This document shows, piece by piece, positions 1 through 6,864 of a DNA stretch of 42,684 nt. Numbering within the stretch: position 1 is the first letter of the stretch; every line of letters begins with the position of its first letter. Source of the DNA: a virus (taxonomy: Duplodnaviria; Heunggongvirae; Uroviricota; Caudoviricetes); the IMG/VR virus record IMGVR_UViG_2529292907_000016, one strand, 5' to 3'. The position numbers were made by a program, and so were the translations under genes. The notes below the pieces were generated by a model that saw only the letters and a program-made list of their open reading frames with translations, searched no databases and was not told the DNA's origin.

Positions 1-933
1 TCATTCACTCTCTTTCAAACCAGTTTTAACTGTTTGTGGTTTTGGGTAAGGCTGGACTTTGAATAGCTTTGTGTTAAGGCGTTTTCTGGCTCTCTTGTCC
101 AGAAACCGGATGTAACGAAACTGACGGAATTTATGAACACTGGCTCTGTCGATATTAGCCCGCAGATGTTCACCTCGCTGTCCTCCTCGTTTGATTGCAT
201 TCTTGCAAATCTCGTGATACCACTCGCCATCAAGTTCATAGAATGTTGTTTCATGACTGCCTACATAATCAAAATTGCTTGCCTGGTACACGACACCAAG
301 ACAGCCACAACGCTCATCTGCAAACGACTGAACCCACTGCACCTGCGGATAAAGTTGTCTGATTAGTTTGAGCGCGTAACTGATTGCCCTTGATTCGGAG
401 TTTCTCGGCATACAGTCATGCAGCCATAACCGGTTAAGCTCCATATATTCGCGGTTCTGCGTGCCAGTTACGACGCGTGCACCATTGTTTGGATTAAGGG
501 CATAACCCCATTGCATTACGCCAACCAGCTCCCGTTCTGAAAATATGCCCAGATGAAGGTAGGAATTATTTACGAAACGATGGCTGTAATGTTTATTGAC
601 GACGACCAGCCGGGCCAGCCAGCAACTTATTGTCTCAACCCGTAACTCACGGGAGCCATAACCGACGATATTGTCGTTATAGTGAATAAGTTCAGGCGTG
701 CTGATGATACGGGATGTAACTTGCTTTCTGTTCCCCACGACAGGATTTCCTTGTGTATGTGGGGTGCTCTGTGGCGCTCTGAGATGTGATTTGATTGAGG
801 GTTTTACAGCGCGGACATTTAACTTCCAGATAACTGAAGCTGGCTCGTGCCAGTAGCTTGTTACAATGTCGGCACCGTATGTTTCGATACATGGCCGCAT
901 AACCTCCTGCTTTGTTGTTGATATCTTTATCAC
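1..933 (-). CDS. mom: Mom-like DNA modification protein; true start probably near the com stop (~700), not the GTG at 933
   Basis: Last ORF before the prophage right end, overlapping a Com-like zinc-finger ORF in another frame as in Mu com/mom; no canonical start codon seen in frame near com stop. Confidence 0.55.
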
Positions 934-937
934 TCAA
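692..937 (-). CDS. com: Com-like zinc-finger translational activator of mom (likely start at ATG 890-892, MYRNIRC...)
   Basis: Motif [10 protein letters not shown]...EVKCPRCK (C4 zinc finger) resembling Mu Com; overlaps mom 5' region. Confidence 0.65.
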
Positions 938-1030
938 TCGATCGACAAAAACGATCGATTTGATTTATTTAATTGATACAACAAATAACACGAAATGTCA
1001 TTAGCGAAAATTTATGAGTTTGATCACTAA
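936..1030. promoter_or_regulatory. Candidate mom/com regulatory region: three GATC sites and a perfect 9-bp inverted repeat (AATCGATCG / CGATCGATT)
   Basis: GATC at ~940, ~953, ~1022 upstream of com; Mu mom promoter is known to be controlled by Dam methylation of upstream GATC sites. Confidence 0.45.
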
Positions 1031-1148
1031 TTTTAAACGGTGCTGTAACGCATAAGTGCTGAATGATTGTACATTTGAATACCGCAAAGCAAACAAATCA
1101 ACTAATTTATAGAAGTCAATTGGTTAATTGCCAGCGTAAGAGGCTGCT

Positions 1149-1442
1149 ATGGACAATCATGTAACGACGAGAAATCGAAAAATGATTGAAAATGCGGAAA
1201 TCTATAATGATTATTTTTCCGATTATTCAGATGCCTGCAAATACAGTTCGAGTGCGGGAGAGTTCATATGCTTCAACTTTTTTATTAAATCTTATGTTTT
1301 TCCTCCACAGCAAGAAGATGGAGGTGTGCCACCTCCTGAAATCACTTTGCACCGTATAGCCTCCGTCTCAATGATGGAGCAACAGGCTAATGAGCTGTAT
1401 AGCATTCTGGGAACGATTCTACAAAAGCGTGAATCGGACTAA
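1149..1442 (+). CDS. Hypothetical protein (97 aa), AT-rich, divergent from com/mom
   Basis: ORF with RBS-like AAGAGG 7 nt upstream of ATG; low-GC relative to flanks. Confidence 0.4.
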   Translation: MDNHVTTRNRKMIENAEIYNDYFSDYSDACKYSSSAGEFICFNFFIKSYVFPPQQEDGGVPPPEITLHRIASVSMMEQQANELYSILGTILQKRESD

Positions 1443-1609
1443 TGATACCGGTTCATTTGCCTGCCCGGATGGGGAAGCAGGATTGACTGCTCCATAAGCA
1501 GCTATATTTCTGAATACGAAATACTATCCAGCGATTACATATGGCTGGATAGCGGCAAAGATGTTTTCATTAGTGTCAAACCGGCAGAGGACACCACCGG
1601 TTTGTATTG

Positions 1610-1864
1610 TTACATCATGGTACTGTCAGTTCCGGGCTGAGCCGGGTCTGGTTGCTCTGGCTGCGCGTCGGTTTTCGGCTCATTATCAGCATCACTGGCC
1701 GCAACTGCTGGCCCAATAAGTTTTGCCAGCACTTCATCAACGTAAGTGTCGATTTGTGCCTCAAAATCCTTGCGGACCTGCGCTTTCAGCAACTTATTTA
1801 CTTCACCGGAATACAGTGCCTGTTTTACCAGGTCTTCAGTGACGGTGCCTTTAATTTCTGGCAT
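1610..1864 (-). CDS. Hypothetical protein (84 aa), acidic Pro-rich C-terminus
   Basis: Strong RBS AAGGAGG upstream of ATG; antisense + ORF 1607..1993 looks like junk. Confidence 0.55.
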   Translation of the reverse strand: MPEIKGTVTEDLVKQALYSGEVNKLLKAQVRKDFEAQIDTYVDEVLAKLIGPAVAASDADNEPKTDAQPEQPDPAQPGTDSTMM

Positions 1865-1899
1865 GTATATCCTCCTTATGCGGGAATAAAGCCCTGCAA

Positions 1900-2094
1900 T
1901 CAGGGCTGGGTCGGGTCTTTTGGGAGCGGAGTTACCTGCGCTGTTTTACTGAGTTTTTCAGCTGCTGCGTCCTCAATTTTGCGGCGAACATAATTTCTGA
2001 TGGCCTTATAACCACCACTCACCAGATATAACGCACATACTGCCGTGCAGAAATACAATAAAATAAGCTGTAAAAATGTCATTATCCCTCCCAA
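1900..2094 (-). CDS. Small membrane protein (64 aa, one N-terminal TM segment)
   Basis: RBS GGGAGGG upstream; hydrophobic stretch FLQLILLYFCTAVCALYLV. Confidence 0.5.
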   Translation of the reverse strand: MGGIMTFLQLILLYFCTAVCALYLVSGGYKAIRNYVRRKIEDAAAEKLSKTAQVTPLPKDPTQP

Positions 2095-2177
2095 TTATTG
2101 ACATGGTGTTGACACCGGTAATATCTGTTAGGTAAAAAGGTGCACTGCATTTTTTGCTTTGGATATAACGATCTTTT

Positions 2178-2220
2178 TGCCGCCGGTTTCTTGTTTTCCC
2201 TTACCGGCGGCATTTTTTTA
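2178..2220 (+). terminator. GC-rich hairpin followed by T7 run (terminator-like on + strand; lies just 3' of the - strand esterase gene)
   Basis: Stem GCCGCCGGT...ACCGGCGGC followed by ATTTTTTTAT on + strand; on the - strand the hairpin is followed by A-rich sequence. Confidence 0.35.
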
Positions 2221-2226
2221 TCCTGC

Positions 2227-4281
2227 TTACGCGTTATTCACTTCCACCACGATACTGTCAATCAGTACCGGGTAAGTCGCATTTTTAGTGATATCGGTCA
2301 CGCGCAACTTGTCTGCCGTAAACGTGCCGACCGGAGACTGCGACAGCATGAATGGTGTCCCGTCCTTACCATCAATGACCGGCGTCACCTCAATACTGTT
2401 GTTACCGGCAAAACGGAAGCCCAGCGTATGCCATTCGTTATTAAATGCGCCGAATGACCCCAGCTTCGTGTTCTGCGCCGTGTTTCCTTTGTGATACATC
2501 ACGTTAAGGTCTGTGGCATCGCTCTGTACGTAGAACGATGCCAGCAGGTTATGACCGGCATTTCCTTCCAGAGTAACCCCTTGCGGCAGGGCAGAAACCG
2601 GCCAGTACAGCGCCAGTGCGTACTGATTAGCCGTAAGCGCGCCATCGAGTTTAAAACGACAACTGACAAGACCACCTTTACCCAGCAGGTCCGCACCATT
2701 ACCAGCATCATGCTCAAGGTACCAGGGGGCTCTTCCTGTTTCCTTGGTCAGTTTCATTGCCTTACCCCCGCTGGCTCCGGCATCATCCACGATTTGAGCC
2801 TTGCCACCTCCGGCAGCCCAACCCTGTGGTGTCAACCGTCCTTCAGACTCAGATGCCCGGTAAGCAAATAGCGTACTCATCGTCGTGGTGTCTGCGGGTG
2901 GCGTGGACGGTTTTGATGGTGTATCAGGTGACGGCTTCTCATCCGGTGGTGTCACGGTCTGCCCGCGCATCAGTTCAGCCGTGCGCCCTGCATGGAGCAT
3001 AATAGCTGAGGCCAGACGGTCTGAAATGACGCCCCTGCGTGCCCATGAGCTGAAATGGCTGTCACGCTGTGTCGAAACAAAACTGCCCTGGGTTCGGGAT
3101 GCTGCACCGTAATACCCGACAGCCACAATATCCGGGTCTTCCGCCGGAGCATTCGTTGGCGTGCTCTGTCCATTCTCATCCGTCAGGAACGGTACAAAGA
3201 AAATTTTCTGTGCTTCCTTGCCTTTGTAGCCACCGTATACTGCCTCATATTTATCGGTGCCAGCGTTTTTCCAGTAATACGTGGTATCTCCGCAAATCCA
3301 CGGCACCGTGGTGGCATTTCCACTCACGCACTGCGCAGCAAGCGGAGCCAGGTCAGTTCTGAACTGCTGAACCATGGCCGTGAATAAACTATTATGCTGC
3401 TGGCTTCCTGAGGCAAGGTCTGCCTCTCCCTGCATCCAGACCACAGCCAGAAGTTTGTTTTTCGGGTTTTTCGCCAGCGCGACTTTGGTGCGGCTTACCA
3501 GGTCCTGATACAGAGGTTTACCGGCCCCCCAGCGTGAAGAATCAGCGGAAGCACCGCTGGCCTCACTGAATGAGCCGTCGGCTCCAGTGGTGAATGCTGA
3601 CCCGCCACGACAACAGGGCACCAGAAGTATCCCGGCATTCTGTGGGATATAGGGAAGCAGTTTTTTGGCAATATGCAACCCCTGACCGACAGTCCCGTAC
3701 TGGCCTTTTGCCAGATCAGCTTTCGGGTGGTTTATCCCGCTCATATCCTGAACATCATGCAGGCAGTGGTCTGCCGGAATGATGTCGTTGTATGTACACG
3801 ACGTACCGTTGGGCGTTACCGTACTGCGGCGTGCCAGTTGCTTAATGCGTGGGTCCGGGCGGTCAAACGAATCCGGTAACGGCAGCCCCTCGCCGTAGGC
3901 CATGCCATTTGACTGACCCGCGAGAATGACAACAAAGTAATATTCCGGCTCTGAACTGCTGCCATTCGTGCTACCGGAAGGCCCGGCGTTATCCGGTGCA
4001 TTCCAGTCGGAGGGCGTGAGCGTTCCGGCCACGTCAGATGTGATTGGAATGATGCCAGTCACGCCTGAACTGGTGATTTCTGCACTGGGATTACCGGATA
4101 CCGGCATTACCCATAATGGCTCTTTCGTGCTGAAGCGGATCACGCAGTCTGCGAAGGTGATCCCCCCTTTATTACCCGAAGGGCGGAAAGGGCTTTCAAT
4201 AAATGCCACCGTGCCACCGGCAACCTTGACTGAAAACTCTCCGGGCATGGCGGAGAGCATTTTCCACTTGGAGTCTGACAT
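2227..4281 (-). CDS. SASA-domain (sialate O-acetylesterase, NanS/NanS-p-like) esterase with Pro/Thr-rich linker and C-terminal beta-rich domain
   Basis: Motifs ILAGQSNGMAYGEG and WMQGEAD typical of SASA family; no signal peptide; linker TPPDEKPSPDTPSKPSTPP. Confidence 0.6.
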   Translation of the reverse strand: MSDSKWKMLSAMPGEFSVKVAGGTVAFIESPFRPSGNKGGITFADCVIRFSTKEPLWVMPVSGNPSAEITSSGVTGIIPITSDVAGTLTPSDWNAPDNAGPSGSTNGSSSEPEYYFVVILAGQSNGMAYGEGLPLPDSFDRPDPRIKQLARRSTVTPNGTSCTYNDIIPADHCLHDVQDMSGINHPKADLAKGQYGTVGQGLHIAKKLLPYIPQNAGILLVPCCRGGSAFTTGADGSFSEASGASADSSRWGAGKPLYQDLVSRTKVALAKNPKNKLLAVVWMQGEADLASGSQQHNSLFTAMVQQFRTDLAPLAAQCVSGNATTVPWICGDTTYYWKNAGTDKYEAVYGGYKGKEAQKIFFVPFLTDENGQSTPTNAPAEDPDIVAVGYYGAASRTQGSFVSTQRDSHFSSWARRGVISDRLASAIMLHAGRTAELMRGQTVTPPDEKPSPDTPSKPSTPPADTTTMSTLFAYRASESEGRLTPQGWAAGGGKAQIVDDAGASGGKAMKLTKETGRAPWYLEHDAGNGADLLGKGGLVSCRFKLDGALTANQYALALYWPVSALPQGVTLEGNAGHNLLASFYVQSDATDLNVMYHKGNTAQNTKLGSFGAFNNEWHTLGFRFAGNNSIEVTPVIDGKDGTPFMLSQSPVGTFTADKLRVTDITKNATYPVLIDSIVVEVNNA

Positions 4282-4355
4282 CGTCTTTTCTGCCTGTTTC
4301 TGAATTAAACAGAGTCAGAATAGCGACCGCTGAAAAATATGTGTTTTGCGGAAAT

Positions 4356-4387
4356 TCAAAAAAGCGTCACGGTACTTTTGGTGACGG
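4356..4387 (-). terminator. Intrinsic terminator at the 3' end of gin
   Basis: Minus-strand RNA: stem CGUCAC/GUGACG with 10-nt loop followed by CUUUUUUG; stem overlaps the last gin codons. Confidence 0.55.
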
Positions 4388-4939
4388 AGCTGGTGAGGCA
4401 GGAAAATAACGATAAAGGGTGGAAAGGCCAATATCAAATATCAGTGCGATTTGTTTACGGGACTCGCCATTAGCCAGCAAACGGGCGATTTGCTCCCGCT
4501 CTTTCTCTGTCAGTTTCTGAGGTCTGCCGCCATGACGCCCCTGAGCACGGGCAGCAGCAAGACCCGCGCGTGTACGTTCAATAATGAGTTCCCGCTCCAT
4601 TTCCGCCAGCGCGCCCATTATATGGAAAAAGAAACGTCCCATGGGAGTGGATGTATCAATATTGTCCGTAATGCTGCGGAAGTTAACGCCGCGTTGCCGG
4701 AGTTCTTCTGTTAAAAGGACAAGGTGCTGCATACTGCGTCCAAGGCGATCCAGTTTCCAGACCAGCAGGGTATCCCCTGGCCGGAGTCGCTTTAATGCGC
4801 GTTTAAGTCCGGGACGCTCCCTTGTCTTACCGCTTATTCTGTCTTCGAAAAACAGCTCACATCCTGCACATTCCAGCGCATTTCTTTGTAGCGCCGTATT
4901 CTGGTCATTTGTTGACACCCTGATATACCCAATCAGCAT
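4367..4939 (-). CDS. gin: Serine DNA invertase (Gin/Hin/Pin/Cin family)
   Basis: N-terminal MLIGYIRVSTNDQ (catalytic Ser region), resolvase fold and C-terminal HTH; adjacent to inverted recombination sites. Confidence 0.9.
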   Translation of the reverse strand: MLIGYIRVSTNDQNTALQRNALECAGCELFFEDRISGKTRERPGLKRALKRLRPGDTLLVWKLDRLGRSMQHLVLLTEELRQRGVNFRSITDNIDTSTPMGRFFFHIMGALAEMERELIIERTRAGLAAARAQGRHGGRPQKLTEKEREQIARLLANGESRKQIALIFDIGLSTLYRYFPASPAPSPKVP

Positions 4940-5004
4940 ACGATTTCCTTATTATAAAAAGCCGGAATTGTCGCATGAGGAATAAAACAGAGTTAATCCT
5001 GGCT

Positions 5005-5030
5005 TTCCTGAAAACCTCGGTTTACGGGAA
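5005..5030. other. gix-like recombination site A (26 bp, 12+2+12, core TC)
   Basis: TTCCTGAAAACC TC GGTTTACGGGAA, an imperfect palindrome matching the Gin/Hin site architecture. Confidence 0.6.
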
Positions 5031-5140
5031 ACGGTAAACAGGGCGGCGAATGCTCTGCCATCGGACGGCACCGCCGTTGCCGCGAATAGACTCGCCACCC
5101 CAAGAAATATTAATGGGGTTCCCTTTGACGGGACGCAGGA
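5019..5140. repeat. Inverted repeat arm (~120 bp) matching 6213..6333
   Basis: ~62 bp near-identical plus ~27 bp identical block in reverse complement, separated by a diverged core. Confidence 0.7.
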
Positions 5141-5378
5141 CATAAACATCACTTCTGGTATAACACAGCAGGATGCGGATTCCCGATATATCCAGGATAT
5201 CAGGCTGGGAGCAGAGAACAGGCAGGTAATGTACGGTGGGGCATATTACTCTGCGTACGGTAATGTTATGGCAGGCCTGCAGATTGACAGTAAAGTTGAT
5301 GCTTCAAACGATTTTATAGCATTCAGACCCCTGCAAAAATTAGTCGGAGGTACATGGATTACGGTATCTCAGTTATAA
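5019..5378 (+). CDS. Alternative tail fibre C-terminal segment (Sv'), no own start; expressed only after inversion
   Basis: Open frame from site A encodes [26 protein letters not shown]..., matching residues of S at the constant/variable junction; stop TAA at 5376-5378. Confidence 0.55.
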   Translation, partial: GLRETVNRAANALPSDGTAVAANRLATPRNINGVPFDGTQDINITSGITQQDADSRYIQDIRLGAENRQVMYGGAYYSAYGNVMAGLQIDSKVDASNDFIAFRPLQKLVGGTWITVSQL

Positions 5379-5429: not shown

Positions 5430-5951
5430 ATGGAACTAAAAAATATAACCCGTTATTATCCTGAAAATATGCCATATGGTAATAATGTTCAGTATTTCCA
5501 GAGTGAAGATGGTAAGGATTTCTACGAATCCCTGCCATTATTCACCAAAAAATATAAACTTTGCATAACACCTGACAGCGGCGTTATCTGCTCAATATCA
5601 CAGGACGCCTCGGCGCTGTATCCTGCGGGGTTTTCTGTGGTTGAGGTCGATGAACTCCCTGAAGGCACGGATATTTCAGGAAACTGGAAGTTTGATAATG
5701 GCATAATCTCCCGTATTCCGGTTAACTACGCAAGAAAACTGGAAGCAATGCGCCAGTCATATCTTAATCAGGCATATGAAAAAATTAATGACTGGAGAAC
5801 GGAGCTACAACTGGGCACCATCAGCGATGAAGACAGAGCAGCACTTACCCAATGGATGGCATACATCAGTCAGGTGAAGAAAATGGAACTACCCGCCATT
5901 AAAACAGAAGCTGAATTTAACGCCATTAAATGGCCTGAGCAGCCACAGTAA
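5430..5951 (+). CDS. Tail fibre assembly protein (Tfa/U-like)
   Basis: 173-aa ORF directly after Sv' inside the invertible segment; size and position typical of tail fibre chaperones. Confidence 0.75.
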   Translation: MELKNITRYYPENMPYGNNVQYFQSEDGKDFYESLPLFTKKYKLCITPDSGVICSISQDASALYPAGFSVVEVDELPEGTDISGNWKFDNGIISRIPVNYARKLEAMRQSYLNQAYEKINDWRTELQLGTISDEDRAALTQWMAYISQVKKMELPAIKTEAEFNAIKWPEQPQ

Positions 5952-5982: not shown

Positions 5983-6864
5983 TTATATACTTGCAGCCGT
6001 CACCCATGCTCCATTTAACAGATACTGCAACGGCCGGTAATACACGCCGCCGACGTTATCTGCCGTATTCTTACCGACATCCTGTACTTTAATTCCGGTA
6101 AGAACATTGCCGCCCCCCAGATTCAGATCCCAGCTTTCCCATGTTCCGGGCATATGTGCGGTCACCGACCCCAGTCTTATGGCGGTTACTGTTCCTGATG
6201 AGATAGTGATATCCTGCGTCCCGTCAAAGGGAACACCATTAATTGTGTGGGCATTTGCCAGCCTGTTCGCGGCAACGGCGGTGCCGTCCGATGGCAGGGC
6301 ATTCGCCGCCCTGTTTACCGTTTCCCGTAAACCGACGTTATCGATAAAAGCCCCTTTATCCGGAATGTCTGCGCCGTTCTGCTCCCTGCGCAGGTAACGG
6401 TTATCACCTTCGCTTTTGCTGTAAACATCCAGATTATTACGGGCGGTTCCCTTATTCTCCAGGTCGGCGAGATTCTGATCCTTCGCCAGGGCATTAACGT
6501 CAGCGGGACCAAGACTGTTTTTTGTGGCAAGCGTCCCCAGACCAAGATAACCACGGGCCAGACGCTGGGCCTCCGCACCGGCATCAGCAATTTCTTTCAG
6601 GTTATTTTTCCGGGAAAAGGCATTCGCAGCGATAATGGCTTTAATGGACAGCGTAAGCTGGTTTAACTGCGCCTTATCCGGCTGAATACTGGCTTCAGCC
6701 AGAATATTCAGCAGTTCGGCCTGGAGAATATTCAGCCAGTCCTGACCAATCCAGCTGATACCTTTTTGTCCGTCACCTTCGGTAAACCAGGTGGTGGTAT
6801 TACTCTGCGCCGGTGCCAGCGCAGGCATATTCGCCACGCCGGAATTATTATCAACATGAAACAT
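5983..6864 (-). CDS. Tail fibre protein (S-like; constant part 6864..6336 joined to variable part 6335..5983 in this orientation)
   Basis: ORF spans recombination site B; follows the baseplate genes. Confidence 0.75.
6213..6333. repeat. Inverted repeat arm matching 5019..5140
   Basis: Reverse complement aligns with 5019..5140 (one mismatch in the first 62 bp). Confidence 0.7.
6322..6347. other. gix-like recombination site B (core GA), inside the tail fibre gene
   Basis: TTCCCGTAAACC GA CGTTATCGATAA; inner half-site is the exact reverse complement of the inner half of site A. Confidence 0.55.

What the first reader, a model, noticed from the sequence alone, without database searches (positions are those of the whole stretch)
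938..2226. Cargo island of small genes next to the esterase
Between com and the esterase lie an AT-rich divergent 97-aa ORF (+), an 84-aa acidic protein and a 64-aa single-TM protein (both - strand, strong RBS). Hairpins near 1580-1610 and 2178-2220 separate them. None has an obvious Mu counterpart; small membrane proteins at phage ends are often superinfection-exclusion or defence-related.
Basis: inference. Interest (0 to 1): 0.45.

Follow-up and report, generated by a model that had tools for sequence, protein, structure and literature searches.

The report
Lambdoid gene block with antisense sRNA
The "island" in this E. coli Mu-like prophage is a mosaic: two small genes of known but uncharacterised families that travel with a sialic-acid esterase shared with lambda-like (Shiga-toxin-type) phages, a probable unannotated small-RNA gene between them, and a swap-in slot holding one orphan gene. 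It is a useful re-annotation rather than a new kind of system.

Summary
The ORFs and hairpins exist as described, with small corrections. The membrane protein is 60 aa from an ATG, not 64 aa. The hairpins are at 1578-1603 and 2179-2211.

The interval is not one island of three independent genes. It has four parts:
- **895-1003:** the conserved com/mom control region, not cargo.
- **~1004-1577:** a hypervariable slot. Here it holds ORF97 (+), an orphan whose only remote relative sits just downstream of cI in lambdoid prophages.
- **1610-2082 (-):** DUF826 and DUF1378. With the NanS-p-type esterase they form a three-gene module, in the same order as upstream of the holin in lambdoid and Stx prophages. 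Both are under purifying selection. A covarying coding-strand stem-loop closes the module.
- **~2109-2220 (+):** a candidate ~76-nt antisense sRNA (TTGACA-N18-TAAAAA, GC hairpin, U7) next to the esterase stop codon. PasA, PasC and EcOnc52 have this position, orientation and architecture. Covariance-model support is marginal (E~0.01).

No protein matches a known defence family, and the functions of the three proteins remain unknown. Members of known kinds in a new (Mu-like) setting; moderate interest.

The parts
895..1003 (-). Conserved com/mom upstream control region, including the palindrome AATCGATCG-N7-CGATCGATT (936-960) with GATC sites at 940 and 953. Not cargo.
   Evidence: It aligns with the GATC-containing mom control region of Mu. 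The last 109 nt before com are 87-92% identical in all 29 Mu-like loci, whereas the DNA beyond them differs.
1004..1577 (.). Hypervariable cargo slot between the com/mom control region and the DUF826 3' hairpin. In this phage it holds ORF97.
   Evidence: The same breakpoints (~1001/1002 and ~1576-1581) appear against FORC_069, M18 and the Stx2c-associated Mu-like phage. 29 Mu-like loci give 18 distinct slot sequences in at least 6 length classes (460-1047 bp), carrying unrelated small ORFs. G+C is 39.7%.
1149..1442 (+). ORF97 (97 aa; alternative start at 1182 gives 86 aa). Acidic, soluble, no known family, divergent from com.
   Evidence: No Pfam, PHROG, NCBIfam or PADLOC hit. Relatives of 78% identity or more occur only in E. 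coli and Shigella. One remote homologue, P0080, also 97 aa, was found in the 1.84-billion-protein library (profile E 7e-4; pairwise 31% identity over 80 aa, E 9e-13). dN/dS is 0.36 against the CI5-type copy. An AAGAGG/GAGAGG ribosome-binding site before the 1149 start is conserved in CI5. The AF2 model is poor (pLDDT 51).
1578..1603 (-). 10-bp stem-loop 6 nt downstream of the DUF826 stop codon. It is the 3' end structure (weak terminator or stabiliser) of the esterase-DUF1378-DUF826 transcript.
   Evidence: Covariation across 11 distinct Mu-like sequences: 92.7% of cells paired against 18-51% when partners are slid; 2 pairs changed on both sides (AU<->CG, GC<->AU via GU). The G.U wobbles pair only in the minus-strand RNA (sequence). 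A U-rich tail follows in FORC_069-type loci and is weak here. The two lambdoid DUF826-holin spacers examined (L003, L009) show no such hairpin.
1610..1864 (-). DUF826 protein (84 aa). Helical N-terminal domain, then a disordered acidic Pro/Glu/Gln-rich tail ending in a hydrophobic ...TMM.
   Evidence: PF05696, 58.7 bits against a cutoff of 25; phrog_311 E 5e-28. AF2 predicts helices 10-17 and 20-50 (block-mean pLDDT 87-97 over residues 11-50) and disorder over 54-84. dN/dS is 0.08-0.29. The identical protein was seen on at least 1000 contigs.
1900..2082 (-). DUF1378 protein (60 aa). N-terminal transmembrane helix (residues ~3-25), a basic juxtamembrane helix and a short Pro-rich tail.
   Evidence: PF07125, 109.1 bits against a cutoff of 25; phrog_494 E 1.6e-32. 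Invariant LYFC...LYL.SGGY core. KD19 of 2.27 at residues 3-21 and pI 9.3. dN/dS is 0.14-0.28.
2109..2220 (+). Candidate antisense (convergent) sRNA gene: -35 TTGACA (2109-2114), 18-nt spacer, -10 TAAAAA (2133-2138), predicted start ~2145, terminator hairpin 2179-2211 (9 bp, 15-nt loop) and U7 (2213-2219). The predicted RNA is ~76 nt and ends 7 nt before the esterase stop codon (2227-2229).
   Evidence: The U tract is present only on the + strand; z = -3.8. TTGAC(A/T)-N17/18-TAAAAA, a GC hairpin and a U tract of at least 6 are kept in all 22 distinct copies, although the four sequence classes are only ~37-42% identical to each other. A covariance model built from PasA, PasC, EcOnc52 and PP2-unit2 gives its best non-training hit exactly here (27.3 bits, E 0.0098). 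The reciprocal model hits PasC (E 0.033), PP2-unit2 (0.068) and EcOnc52 (0.3). A weak Rfam Esr41 match lies at 2139-2221 (22.2 bits against a gathering score of 102). The element is present and unannotated in 361 of 5426 complete E. coli genomes.
2227..4281 (-). NanS-p-type esterase (684 aa; SASA/SGNH esterase domain plus DUF6645). It is the first gene of the module and lies outside the reported interval, but it is the key to interpreting it.
   Evidence: PF03629 and PF20350; phrog_143 E 1.7e-296. A lambdoid prophage (L044) carries an esterase 98% identical at protein level.

Best explanation
The interval is a mosaic at the gin-com junction of an E. coli Mu-like prophage. It is not one island of three independent genes.

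(1) **DUF1378 and DUF826 belong to a three-gene module.** DUF1378 is a 60-aa inner-membrane protein and DUF826 an 84-aa soluble helical protein with an acidic tail. They are the two distal genes of esterase -> DUF1378 -> DUF826. Lambdoid and Stx prophages carry the same module in their late region, directly upstream of the class II holin and SAR-endolysin genes. In this Mu-like lineage the module sits in what is a 94-bp gap in Mu, in the same orientation as gin and com-mom. A coding-strand stem-loop (1578-1603) closes it ahead of the tightly controlled mom operon. The two small genes have no promoter of their own that I could find, so they are most likely read together with the esterase (inferred). 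Both are maintained by purifying selection even without an adjacent holin (shown). I therefore infer that they act as a membrane-anchored pair, with the basic cytoplasmic helix of DUF1378 binding the acidic DUF826. Their role would be tied to late-stage release (lysis or esterase release) and would not require the lambdoid holin in cis. Their biochemical function is not known.

(2) **A small-RNA gene lies between the esterase stop and the DUF1378 start.** It is on the opposite strand: a near-consensus sigma-70 promoter, a ~76-nt transcript, a GC hairpin and U7. It is the positional and architectural counterpart of the Hfq-dependent prophage sRNAs PasA and PasC (EPEC) and EcOnc52 (EHEC). Being fully complementary to the esterase-DUF1378 intercistronic RNA, it would act in cis on that transcript (convergent transcription and duplex formation). 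Like its relatives, it may also act in trans on host mRNAs (inferred).

(3) **The rest (~1004-1577) is a replaceable slot.** In this phage it carries ORF97, divergent from com. It may be expressed in the absence of the late activator C from a momP2-like divergent promoter, that is, in the lysogen (inferred from Mu). ORF97 is the only element for which a host-protective 'moron' role is a reasonable guess.
For: **Context.** The window is Mu-like: Mom, Com, Gin, Mu portal, MuB, GemA, Mu-type repressor and transposase domains. Homology to Mu is interrupted between mom and gin, and Mu's own gin-com gap is 94 bp.

**Module.**
- The order esterase -> DUF1378 -> DUF826 -> class II holin -> (YdfR) -> lysozyme is seen in O157:H7 and other lambdoid prophages. 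It is noted for Stx2a phages in PMC10462455.
- 27 of 33 IMG/VR loci with DUF1378 are Mu-like (gin-esterase-DUF1378-DUF826-slot-com-mom). They fall into two lineages whose esterases are only 62-67% identical.
- A lambdoid esterase is 98% identical to this one, and identity along the module is mosaic.
- dN/dS is 0.14-0.28 for DUF1378 and 0.08-0.29 for DUF826, including Mu-like against Mu-like comparisons.
- Both phage types use SAR-type PF00959 endolysins, judged from the N-terminal sequences.
- DUF826 structure. DUF1378 topology.
- 3' hairpin covariation with strand-specific G.U pairs.

**sRNA.**
- Strand-specific U7 and fold z-score.
- Promoter and terminator are conserved across four otherwise dissimilar sequence classes.
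- PasA and PasC are antisense RNAs between the esterase and the holin. PasC, and the minor 236-nt form of PasA, have 3' ends next to the esterase stop codon (PMC8550237 Table S6; sequences).
- EcOnc52 is an Hfq-bound RNA lying antisense at the stop codon of the esterase gene ECs_1088 (Tree 2014 Table S2).
- Reciprocal covariance-model hits fall at the equivalent intergenic region in 6 of 6 independent loci.

**Slot and ORF97.**. P0080 lies directly downstream of cI (HTH + S24), as the first of three small genes, in a lambdoid prophage whose cI gene is 90.5% identical to that of a Yersinia enterocolitica phage. A divergent promoter, momP2, is active at Pmom without C in Mu (PMC3378877).
Against: - No experiment or known homologue gives a function for DUF1378, DUF826 or ORF97. 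The pairing of DUF1378 with DUF826 rests only on adjacency, opposite charge and two rare fused ORFs that may be sequencing artefacts.
- Lambdoid prophages with the 616-aa esterase type have a class II holin but no DUF1378 or DUF826. The pair is therefore not needed for that holin.
- A solitary DUF1378 gene in Cedecea neteri has no esterase, no DUF826 and no sRNA element. This argues that DUF1378 can act alone.
- sRNA: the -10 hexamer lacks the usual final T. Covariance-model E-values are marginal and roughly calibrated (0.01-1.2). There is no BLAST-level similarity to PasA or PasC.
- The Sakai Sp5 copy of the element corresponds to none of the 63 Hfq-bound orphan RNA sites listed for that strain.
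- In classes B and C one stem position is A.C on the sRNA strand but G.U on the coding strand. The hairpin may therefore also, or instead, serve the esterase mRNA. Class A shows no covariation because it is too conserved.
- ORF97: there is only one informative dN/dS comparison, the start codon is uncertain, no convincing promoter was found by scanning, and the structure model is poor.
Confidence: 0.6

Rival explanations
1. One reading: the three small genes are independent cargo that protects the lysogen (superinfection exclusion or anti-phage defence), with the membrane protein as effector.
For: - The DNA is absent from Mu.
- DUF1378 is a small membrane protein.
- A solitary DUF1378 occurs at the end of a tail-gene cluster in Cedecea, like an autonomous moron.
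- The neighbouring slot is hypervariable.
- The ORF97 homologue sits in the rex-like position downstream of cI.
Against: - No hits above noise in PADLOC for any of the proteins, or for the alternative slot proteins.
- DUF1378 and DUF826 lie in the late operon between the esterase and the holin in lambdoids. That region is expressed on induction, not in lysogeny (PMC10462455).
- They co-vary with the esterase module rather than with the variable slot.
- They have no recognisable promoter of their own.
Confidence: 0.15
2. DUF1378 and DUF826 are accessory proteins of the lambdoid pinholin/SAR-endolysin lysis cassette (for example, lysis-timing modulators). They were merely carried along with the esterase into the Mu-like phage, where they have no role.
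For: In every lambdoid locus examined they lie immediately upstream of the class II holin. The architecture is a small membrane protein plus a small cytoplasmic helical protein. From my own knowledge, this recalls the two-component antiholin pairs of other phages, such as T4 RI/RIII.
Against: - Both ORFs are intact and under purifying selection in two deeply diverged Mu-like lineages that lack the holin.
- Class II holins occur without them in E2348/69 PP2.
- Cedecea has a solitary DUF1378.
- There is no sequence similarity to any known holin or antiholin family.
Confidence: 0.2
3. The 2179-2211 hairpin is only a structural element of the esterase mRNA (a 3' stabiliser or processing site, or a barrier to stray antisense transcription). 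There is no discrete sRNA gene.
For: - In sequence classes B and C one stem pair is G.U on the coding strand but A.C on the antisense strand.
- The Sakai Sp5 copy corresponds to none of the Hfq-bound sites reported for that strain.
- The -10 element is imperfect (TAAAAA).
- Covariance-model E-values are marginal.
Against: - A run of at least 6 T on the antisense strand immediately 3' of the stem is kept in all 22 distinct copies (7-8 in 19 of them). A perfect or near-perfect TTGAC(A/T) at a fixed distance from TAAAAA is kept too, while the sequence between them is replaced wholesale.
- The coding strand has no U tract.
- Experimentally verified RNAs (PasA, PasC, EcOnc52) have the same layout at the same place.
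Confidence: 0.25
4. ORF97 is not a gene. It is a chance open frame in AT-rich spacer DNA.
For: It has no family hit, a poor structure model, a narrow distribution, an uncertain start codon, and no clear promoter or terminator. The first 11 codons show only non-synonymous differences.
Against: - It is intact in all full-length relatives. The CI5-type copy is 78% identical at protein level, with third-position bias (14/7/18 differences by codon position) and dN/dS of 0.36 (0.29 from codon 12 onward).
- A 97-aa remote homologue is collinear over 80 residues (31% identity, E 9e-13) in an unrelated prophage context.
- A conserved ribosome-binding site precedes the 1149 start.
Confidence: 0.12

Closest known systems
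The nanS-p - DUF1378 - DUF826 segment of the late region of Stx and other lambdoid prophages (for example Sakai Sp5 ECs_1207/ECs_5706, ECs_1210, ECs_1211, then the ECs_1212 lysis protein; O157:H7 TR01)
   Same: Same three protein families, same order and orientation, homologous intergenic DNA including the hairpin and the TTGACA/TAAAAA element. The esterase is up to 98% identical. The presence of DUF826/DUF1378 ORFs between nanS-p and S is reported in PMC10462455.
   Different: Here the module is not downstream of Q/pR' and is not followed by holin or endolysin genes. It lies between gin and com-mom of a transposable Mu-like phage and ends in a lineage-specific stem-loop. The function of the two small proteins is unknown in either setting.
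PasA/PasC (EPEC E2348/69) and EcOnc52 (EHEC Sakai): Hfq-associated prophage sRNAs encoded antisense at the 3' end of SASA esterase genes
   Same: Same position (within a few nt of the esterase stop codon for PasC, EcOnc52 and the long form of PasA). Same antisense orientation ('> < >'). Same layout: TTGACA, ~18-19 nt with a shared CTGT, an A-rich -10, a 75-85-nt RNA, a GC hairpin and U7. Reciprocal covariance-model hits.
   Different: No BLAST-level similarity in the body or 'seed'. The neighbouring esterase is the 684-aa DUF6645 type, not the 616-aa type. The next gene is DUF1378, not the holin. Expression and Hfq binding are untested, and the Sakai Sp5 copy corresponds to none of the Hfq-CRAC sites in that strain's list.
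Bacteriophage Mu right end (gin - Pmom - com - mom), with Dam/OxyR-controlled GATC sites and the divergent promoter momP2
   Same: gin, com and mom are homologous. The GATC-containing control region aligns. Divergent transcription from the mom control region is documented in Mu (PMC3378877).
   Different: Mu has 94 bp between gin and com; this phage has ~3.4 kb. The distance from the GATC palindrome to the com start is shorter than in Mu, and no C-binding site was identified.
Lysogeny-expressed 'moron' or immunity-region slots such as lambda cI-rexA-rexB
   Same: The only remote relative of ORF97 (P0080) lies just downstream of cI on the same strand, as the first of three small genes ahead of an N-like gene. 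The ORF97 slot itself is hypervariable and AT-rich.
   Different: No sequence relationship to RexA or RexB, or to any PADLOC family. ORF97 stands alone in the Mu-like phage. Expression in lysogens is not shown.
Type I toxin-antitoxin loci with a divergently encoded antisense RNA (tisB/istR-1, zorO/orzO type; from my own knowledge)
   Same: A small hydrophobic membrane protein gene (DUF1378), with a small-RNA promoter lying divergently ~27 nt upstream of its start codon.
   Different: Toxicity of DUF1378 is unknown. The RNA is complementary to the upstream intercistronic region, not to the ribosome-binding site. The same RNA type occurs next to holin genes without DUF1378, and DUF1378 occurs without the RNA in Cedecea.

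Membership tests
Pfam PF07125 (DUF1378) | Profile score above the curated gathering threshold over the full domain | tested here: met
   109.1 bits against a cutoff of 25, residues 5-62 of the 64-aa reading matching profile positions 1-58 of 59. phrog_494 E 1.6e-32. PGAP names the identical protein 'DUF1378 family protein'.
Pfam PF05696 (DUF826) | Profile score above the curated gathering threshold | tested here: met
   58.7 bits against a cutoff of 25, residues 1-57. phrog_311 E 4.9e-28. All 65 first-round homologues carry PF05696.
Lambdoid late-region module nanS-p - DUF1378 - DUF826 | Gene order and orientation: esterase, then DUF1378, then DUF826, with homologous intergenic DNA | tested here: met
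Lambdoid late-region module nanS-p - DUF1378 - DUF826 | Location downstream of Q/pR' (the moron site) and immediately upstream of the class II holin and endolysin genes | tested here: not met
   In the window and 26 other Mu-like loci the module is flanked by gin and by the slot plus com-mom. The phage's own lysozyme gene is 27 kb away.
PasA/PasC/EcOnc52-type prophage sRNAs | Encoded antisense to, and at the 3' end of, a SASA-family esterase gene | tested here: met
   The predicted RNA ends at 2219/2220 and the esterase stop codon is at 2227-2229, on the opposite strand. Compare PasC, EcOnc52 and the long form of PasA.
PasA/PasC/EcOnc52-type prophage sRNAs | Own promoter plus a Rho-independent terminator with a poly-U tail (likely Hfq-binding module) | tested here: met
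   At sequence level only: TTGACA-N18-TAAAAA, a 9-bp GC stem and U7. These are conserved in all 22 distinct copies.
PasA/PasC/EcOnc52-type prophage sRNAs | Sequence and structure similarity to the described members | tested here: inconclusive
   The covariance model from the four known sequences hits window 2109-2222 at 27.3 bits, E 0.0098 (training sequences score 108-134 bits). The reciprocal model hits PasC at E 0.033, PP2-unit2 at 0.068, EcOnc52 at 0.3 and PasA at 1.2. E-values are roughly calibrated. The bodies of the RNAs do not align.
PasA/PasC/EcOnc52-type prophage sRNAs | Detected transcript of the expected size, Hfq-dependent stability or binding | not testable with these tools
   No expression data are available here. 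The Sakai Sp5 copy corresponds to no site in the Sakai Hfq-CRAC list.
Rfam RF02676 (Esr41) | Covariance-model score at or above the gathering threshold | tested here: not met
   22.2 bits against a gathering score of 102, E 0.47. Esr41 itself is encoded in SpLE1, a different locus (PMC5286369).
Known anti-phage defence systems (PADLOC-DB 2.0) | Any component protein matching a defence-system profile | tested here: not met
   No hits for ORF97, DUF1378, the esterase, five alternative slot proteins, P0080 or its two neighbours. DUF826 gave only a 12.9-bit match (E 0.0076) to a helical stretch of PbeC.
Holin / antiholin / spanin families | Profile match to a described lysis-protein family | tested here: not met
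   Pfam, PHROGs and NCBIfam return only the two DUFs and unknown-function PHROGs. There is no PDB relative by sequence or by fold.
Type I toxin-antitoxin | The small membrane protein is toxic on expression and is repressed by the adjacent antisense RNA | not testable with these tools
   Only the gene layout is suggestive.
Mu-type mom control region | Cluster of Dam (GATC) sites upstream of com, alignable with Mu | tested here: met
   GATC at 940 and 953 within AATCGATCG-N7-CGATCGATT, aligned with Mu's ...AAATCGATCGGTAATACAGATCGATT.... Binding of C, OxyR or RNA polymerase was not tested.

The most novel reading that the evidence does not exclude
The antisense RNA element is one allele of a large, sequence-diverse superfamily: PasA, PasC, EcOnc52 and the classes A-D found here. 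This superfamily would mark the 3' end of the NanS-p-type esterase genes in both lambdoid and Mu-like phages. Together with the small membrane protein gene immediately downstream (DUF1378, or the holin where DUF1378 is absent), it would form a portable gate, similar to a type I toxin-antitoxin. The RNA would silence leaky read-through into a membrane-active protein in the lysogen and also reprogramme host mRNAs in trans. In parallel, the adjacent gin-com slot would be the Mu-like phages' hotspot for lysogeny-expressed protective genes, driven by a momP2-like promoter. ORF97 and P0080 would then be a new exclusion-gene family shared with the rex position of lambdoid phages.
Probability: 0.15. 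Interest if true: 0.6.

Novelty: new member of a known kind. Interest (0 to 1): 0.35.

Why it matters
- **Virulence context.** NanS-p esterase modules and prophage-encoded sRNAs are part of how pathogenic E. coli exploit mucus sugars and rewire host regulation.
- **A different vector.** The esterase, DUF1378 and DUF826 block, with a likely sRNA gene, also rides on transposable Mu-like prophages, and its parts are exchanged mosaically with lambdoid phages. This widens the set of vehicles for these traits beyond lambdoid phages.
- **An annotation gap.** The candidate sRNA is unannotated although present in about 6.7% of complete E. coli genomes. BLAST-based surveys of Pas sRNAs would miss it. 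If it is expressed, the family is larger and more diverse than described.
- **Targets for screening.** The work pinpoints a precise, conserved-flank variable slot in Mu-like phages. It also links one orphan family (ORF97/P0080) to the cI-downstream position. Both are practical starting points for screens of prophage-encoded protective genes.
- **Limit.** None of this changes the fact that the three proteins themselves remain functionally uncharacterised.

Tried and rejected
- **Deposited phage genomes.** No near match to the interval. The distant search found only two Stx phages that carry an inserted Mu-like phage. tblastn with ORF97 found nothing.
- **Esr41.** The Rfam hit is far below threshold, and Esr41 maps to SpLE1, so this identification was rejected.
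- **YdfR.** I first assumed the YdfR protein between holin and lysozyme was a DUF826 paralogue. Alignment shows 16-17% identity, so it was dropped.
- **K-12 YbcW.** I recalled it as DUF1378. The K-12 record calls it only 'uncharacterized protein' and I did not verify it, so I make no claim.
- **Structure route.** DUF826 is essentially one long helix plus a disordered tail. Foldseek against the PDB gave 0 matches, and the PDB sequence search gave only noise. The ORF97 model is too poor (pLDDT 51) to search.
- **Literature by locus tags** (ECs1210/1211, Z1467/8, L0106/7): nothing relevant.
- **Covariation within class A of the RNA element:** none, because the sequences are too similar.
- **Scan of one genome per species for DUF1378:** a single hit, in Cedecea neteri. 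The family is very narrowly distributed, and the planned cross-genus synteny test was not possible.
- **Consensus promoter and terminator scan of 600-5100:** no more sites than in shuffled sequence. It missed the 2179-2211 hairpin because of the 15-nt loop.
- **Promoters for the module.** I looked by eye for a promoter for DUF1378 on the coding strand and for a C-dependent promoter upstream of the esterase. Nothing was convincing.


Full report
**What the window is.** It is a Mu-like prophage of E. coli read in reverse orientation.
- Mom (1-709/933, -), Com (692-894, -) and a Gin-type recombinase (4367-4939, -) are at the left end.
- Further in lie a Mu portal, MuB, GemA, a Mu-type repressor and transposase domains, and a SAR-type lysozyme.
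- The reported interval is identical in 14 complete E. coli genomes, where it lies inside such a prophage.
- DNA homology to phage Mu covers mom (window 41-689) and gin (4509-5042), with nothing in between.
- In Mu, gin ends 94 bp before com, and that gap holds only the late promoter Pmom.
- So about 3.4 kb (938-4366) is extra DNA relative to Mu.

**Checking the observation.** The three ORFs exist.
- ORF97 (1149-1442, +) lies in 40% G+C DNA, against 53.6% for the window.
- The acidic protein (1610-1864, -) has pI 4.2 and an AAGGAGG ribosome-binding site.
- The membrane protein is better read as 60 aa from the ATG at 2082, preceded by GGAGGG, than as 64 aa from a TTG. Its residues 3-21 are strongly hydrophobic and are followed by a basic stretch.
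- The 2179-2211 hairpin folds far better than shuffled sequence (z about -3.5 to -3.8).
- The 1578-1603 hairpin is unremarkable alone but is validated by comparative data, described below.

**The two minus-strand genes belong to the esterase.**
- They are members of Pfam DUF1378 (109 bits) and DUF826 (59 bits), and of PHROGs 494 and 311, all of unknown function.
- The 684-aa neighbour is a SASA/SGNH esterase with a DUF6645 domain, the NanS-p type.
- In lambdoid prophages of O157:H7 and other E. coli the order is Q ... tRNAs ... esterase, DUF1378, DUF826, class II holin, (YdfR), lysozyme. This is the same order and strand as here.
- A study of Stx2a phages notes ORFs with these DUF domains between nanS-p and S (PMC10462455).
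- Of 33 IMG/VR loci encoding a DUF1378 relative, 27 are Mu-like (gin-esterase-DUF1378-DUF826-slot-com-mom), 5 are lambdoid, and one is unassigned.
- The Mu-like loci form two lineages whose esterases share only 62-67% protein identity. Yet one lambdoid esterase is 98% identical to the window's.
- Identity along the module is mosaic. The module is therefore old in Mu-like phages and still exchanges segments with lambdoid phages. I cannot tell the direction of the original transfer.

**Are the small genes functional here?** Pairwise dN/dS is 0.14-0.28 for DUF1378 and 0.08-0.29 for DUF826, including comparisons within Mu-like phages, with differences concentrated at third codon positions. They are thus maintained without an adjacent holin.
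- DUF826 is predicted as a short helix plus one long helix (residues 10-50; block-mean pLDDT 87-97 over residues 11-50), followed by a disordered acidic Pro/Glu/Gln-rich tail. In most family members the tail ends in a short hydrophobic motif.
- DUF1378 has an invariant LYFC...LYL.SGGY membrane core followed by a basic helix.
- Nothing similar is in the PDB by sequence or fold, in NCBIfam or in PADLOC.
- Two rare database ORFs fuse DUF1378 to DUF826, but they look like read-through of the short spacer and carry little weight.

Three observations limit the possible roles:
- Class II holins occur without the pair next to the 616-aa esterase type.
- The pair travels with the DUF6645-type esterase into Mu-like phages.
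- A solitary DUF1378 gene follows the tail-fibre genes of a prophage in Cedecea neteri.

I found no promoter for the pair on the coding strand. The hairpin after the esterase has no U tract on that strand, so co-transcription with the esterase is the simplest reading. My working model is a membrane-anchored DUF1378-DUF826 pair acting late, in lysis or release. This is inference, not demonstration.

**The hairpin at 2179-2211 and a probable sRNA gene.** On the + strand, antisense to all three genes, the stem is followed by U7. On the coding strand it is preceded by A7 and followed by no U tract.
- Upstream on the + strand are a perfect -35 hexamer TTGACA (2109-2114), an 18-nt spacer and TAAAAA (2133-2138).
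- This predicts a ~76-nt U-rich RNA ending 7 nt before the esterase stop codon.
- The esterase-DUF1378 spacer occurs in at least four sequence classes that are only ~37-42% identical to each other and are swapped independently of the flanking genes.
- All 22 distinct copies keep TTGAC(A/T), the spacing, TAAAAA, a GC-rich hairpin and a U tract of at least 6.
- The first stem pair is G-C in class A and C-G in classes B and C.

Independent literature describes the same arrangement.
- PasA and PasC of EPEC E2348/69 are Hfq-stabilised sRNAs encoded antisense ('> < >') between a sialic-acid esterase gene and the holin (PMC8550237 Table S6; bioRxiv 10.64898/2026.05.13.724894).
- PasC ends 2 nt from the esterase stop codon. 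The 236-nt form of PasA ends right at its esterase stop codon, after reading through a second unit.
- The Hfq-bound RNA EcOnc52 of EHEC Sakai lies antisense at the stop codon of esterase gene ECs_1088. The second unit in E2348/69 PP2 is nearly identical to the DNA at the EcOnc52 locus.
- Their promoters share TTGACA-N10-CTGT-N4/5-(T/A)AAAA(A/T) with the window.

Covariance models give reciprocal but marginal support.
- A model built from these four known sequences gives its best non-training hit at window 2109-2222 (+) (27.3 bits, E about 0.01). It also hits the equivalent spacer in five other loci.
- The reciprocal model, built from classes A-D, finds the untrained Sakai Sp5 copy (E 7e-6), then PasC, PP2-unit2, EcOnc52 and PasA (E 0.03-1.2).
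- I read this as a shared architecture and probable distant homology.

Caveats on the sRNA reading:
- The E-values are marginal and roughly calibrated.
- The RNA bodies do not align.
- The Sakai Sp5 copy corresponds to none of the 63 orphan Hfq sites in that strain's list.
- In classes B and C one stem position pairs only on the coding strand (G.U against A.C), so the hairpin may serve both strands.
- The weak Rfam Esr41 match is not a membership: it is far below threshold, and Esr41 is encoded elsewhere.

The class A element is present and unannotated in 361 of 5426 complete E. coli genomes.

**The hairpin at 1578-1603.** In 11 distinct Mu-like sequences the 10-bp stem, 6 nt after the DUF826 stop codon, is 92.7% paired, against 18-51% when partners are slid.
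- It shows AU<->CG and GC<->GU<->AU exchanges.
- The wobble pairs work only in the minus-strand RNA.
- In FORC_069-type loci it is followed by a U-rich tail; in the window the tail is weak.
- The two lambdoid DUF826-holin spacers I examined show no such hairpin.
- It is therefore the 3' end structure of the esterase-DUF1378-DUF826 unit. It plausibly limits read-through toward the slot and the toxic mom operon.

**The slot and ORF97.** Against FORC_069, M18 and a Mu-like phage inserted in an Stx2c phage, similarity breaks at ~1001/1002 and resumes at ~1576-1581.
- Across 29 Mu-like loci, the last 109 nt before com are 87-92% identical. This stretch includes the AATCGATCG-N7-CGATCGATT palindrome that aligns with Mu's GATC region.
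- The DNA between that stretch and the hairpin comes in 18 distinct versions and at least 6 length classes.
- The alternatives encode unrelated small proteins: 99, 68 and 66 aa; a 175-201-aa zinc-ribbon protein with a hydrophobic (possibly membrane-spanning) stretch; and a 64-aa zinc-ribbon protein. None has a known function or a PADLOC match.
- ORF97 has close relatives only in E. coli and Shigella, and none in 50,697 deposited phage genomes.
- An exhaustive profile search found one remote relative, P0080, also 97 aa (31% identity over 80 residues).
- P0080 lies directly downstream of a cI-type repressor gene on the same strand. It is the first of three small genes, ahead of an N-like gene.
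- That is the position rexAB holds in lambda, in a lambdoid prophage whose cI gene is 90.5% identical to that of a Yersinia enterocolitica phage.
- dN/dS against the CI5-type copy is 0.36.
- In Mu, RNA polymerase occupies a divergent promoter (momP2) at Pmom when the activator C is absent (PMC3378877). A comparable promoter here would express the slot gene in lysogens, but I could not identify it.

ORF97 is therefore a real but uncharacterised gene. A lysogeny-expressed, host-protective role is plausible and untested.

**Verdict.** It misses three points:
- Two of the three genes are known-family members tied to the esterase module shared with lambdoid and Stx phages.
- One 'separator' hairpin is probably the terminator of an unannotated Pas/EcOnc52-like antisense sRNA.
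- The other hairpin is the module's own 3' end.

No new kind of system is demonstrated, and the proteins' functions remain unknown. Interest is moderate, mainly for the sRNA candidate and the defined variable slot.

Noticed in passing
window 9323-10924 (-), with neighbouring ORF 10931-11617 (-): An IS66-family transposase (DDE_Tnp_IS66, zf-IS66 and LZ domains) sits in the middle of the baseplate and tail gene region. The prophage may therefore be defective.
   Followed up: no
window 39131-40576 (-) and 38468-39061 (-): The MuA-like transposase ORF is only 481 aa (Mu DNA-binding domain at its N terminus) and is followed by a separate 197-aa ORF. This may be a frameshifted or split transposase gene.
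   Followed up: no
window 5010-5158 and 6194-6342: Inverted repeats of 86 nt (93% complementary) and 50 nt (84%) flank ~1 kb next to gin that contains a tail-fibre assembly gene (5430-5951). This is a G-segment-like invertible region. The related prophages CI5 and M18 lack gin altogether.
   Followed up: partly
window 692-937 / L001 5756-5955: In strain JE86-ST05, PGAP marks com as frameshifted, and its mom coordinates are offset by one base relative to the window. The window has an intact 66-aa com from the ATG at 894. The mom frame is open for 310 codons from a GTG and overlaps com.
   Followed up: partly
L032-L039 and L007 (class C spacer), about 25-40 nt after the TAAAAA element: The class C version of the antisense element carries an internal ACUCC-UUCG-GGAGU hairpin (UUCG tetraloop) that classes A and B lack.
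   Followed up: no
L010 2764-2867 (-) (E2348/69 PP2, between PasA and the esterase stop): A second promoter-hairpin-U7 unit lies between PasA and the esterase. It is nearly identical to the DNA at the EHEC EcOnc52 locus. The 'minor 236-nt PasA' appears to be read-through of PasA into this unit.
   Followed up: partly
P0102 (162 aa) and P0127 (122 aa): Two database proteins fuse DUF1378 to DUF826 through translation of the 35-nt spacer. Each was seen on one short contig. They could be natural fusions or sequencing or gene-calling artefacts.
   Followed up: partly
L052 4501-4665 (Cedecea neteri NBRC 105707): This was the only DUF1378 relative found in one genome per species of 185,579 species. 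It is a solitary 54-aa gene after the baseplate and tail-fibre genes, and is followed by a hairpin and a 261-aa ORF that looks like a DNA methyltransferase (my reading; not checked against Pfam). It has no esterase, no DUF826 and no antisense element.
   Followed up: partly
L047 6001-6951 (also L048-L050): A three-gene operon (97, 95 and 123 aa; the last two match phrog_17259 and phrog_5954, both of unknown function) lies immediately downstream of cI in lambdoid prophages. The cI gene of L047 is 90.5% identical to that of a Yersinia enterocolitica phage. This is an uncharacterised occupant of the rex position.
   Followed up: partly
window 1001-1045 (+): The sequence ATGAGTTTGATCAC... at the edge of the slot is a diverged remnant of the start of the 99-aa divergent ORF (ATGATTCAGGGAGGTGATTAT...) that most other Mu-like variants carry next to the com control region. 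This suggests the ORF97 cassette replaced an older divergent gene.
   Followed up: no
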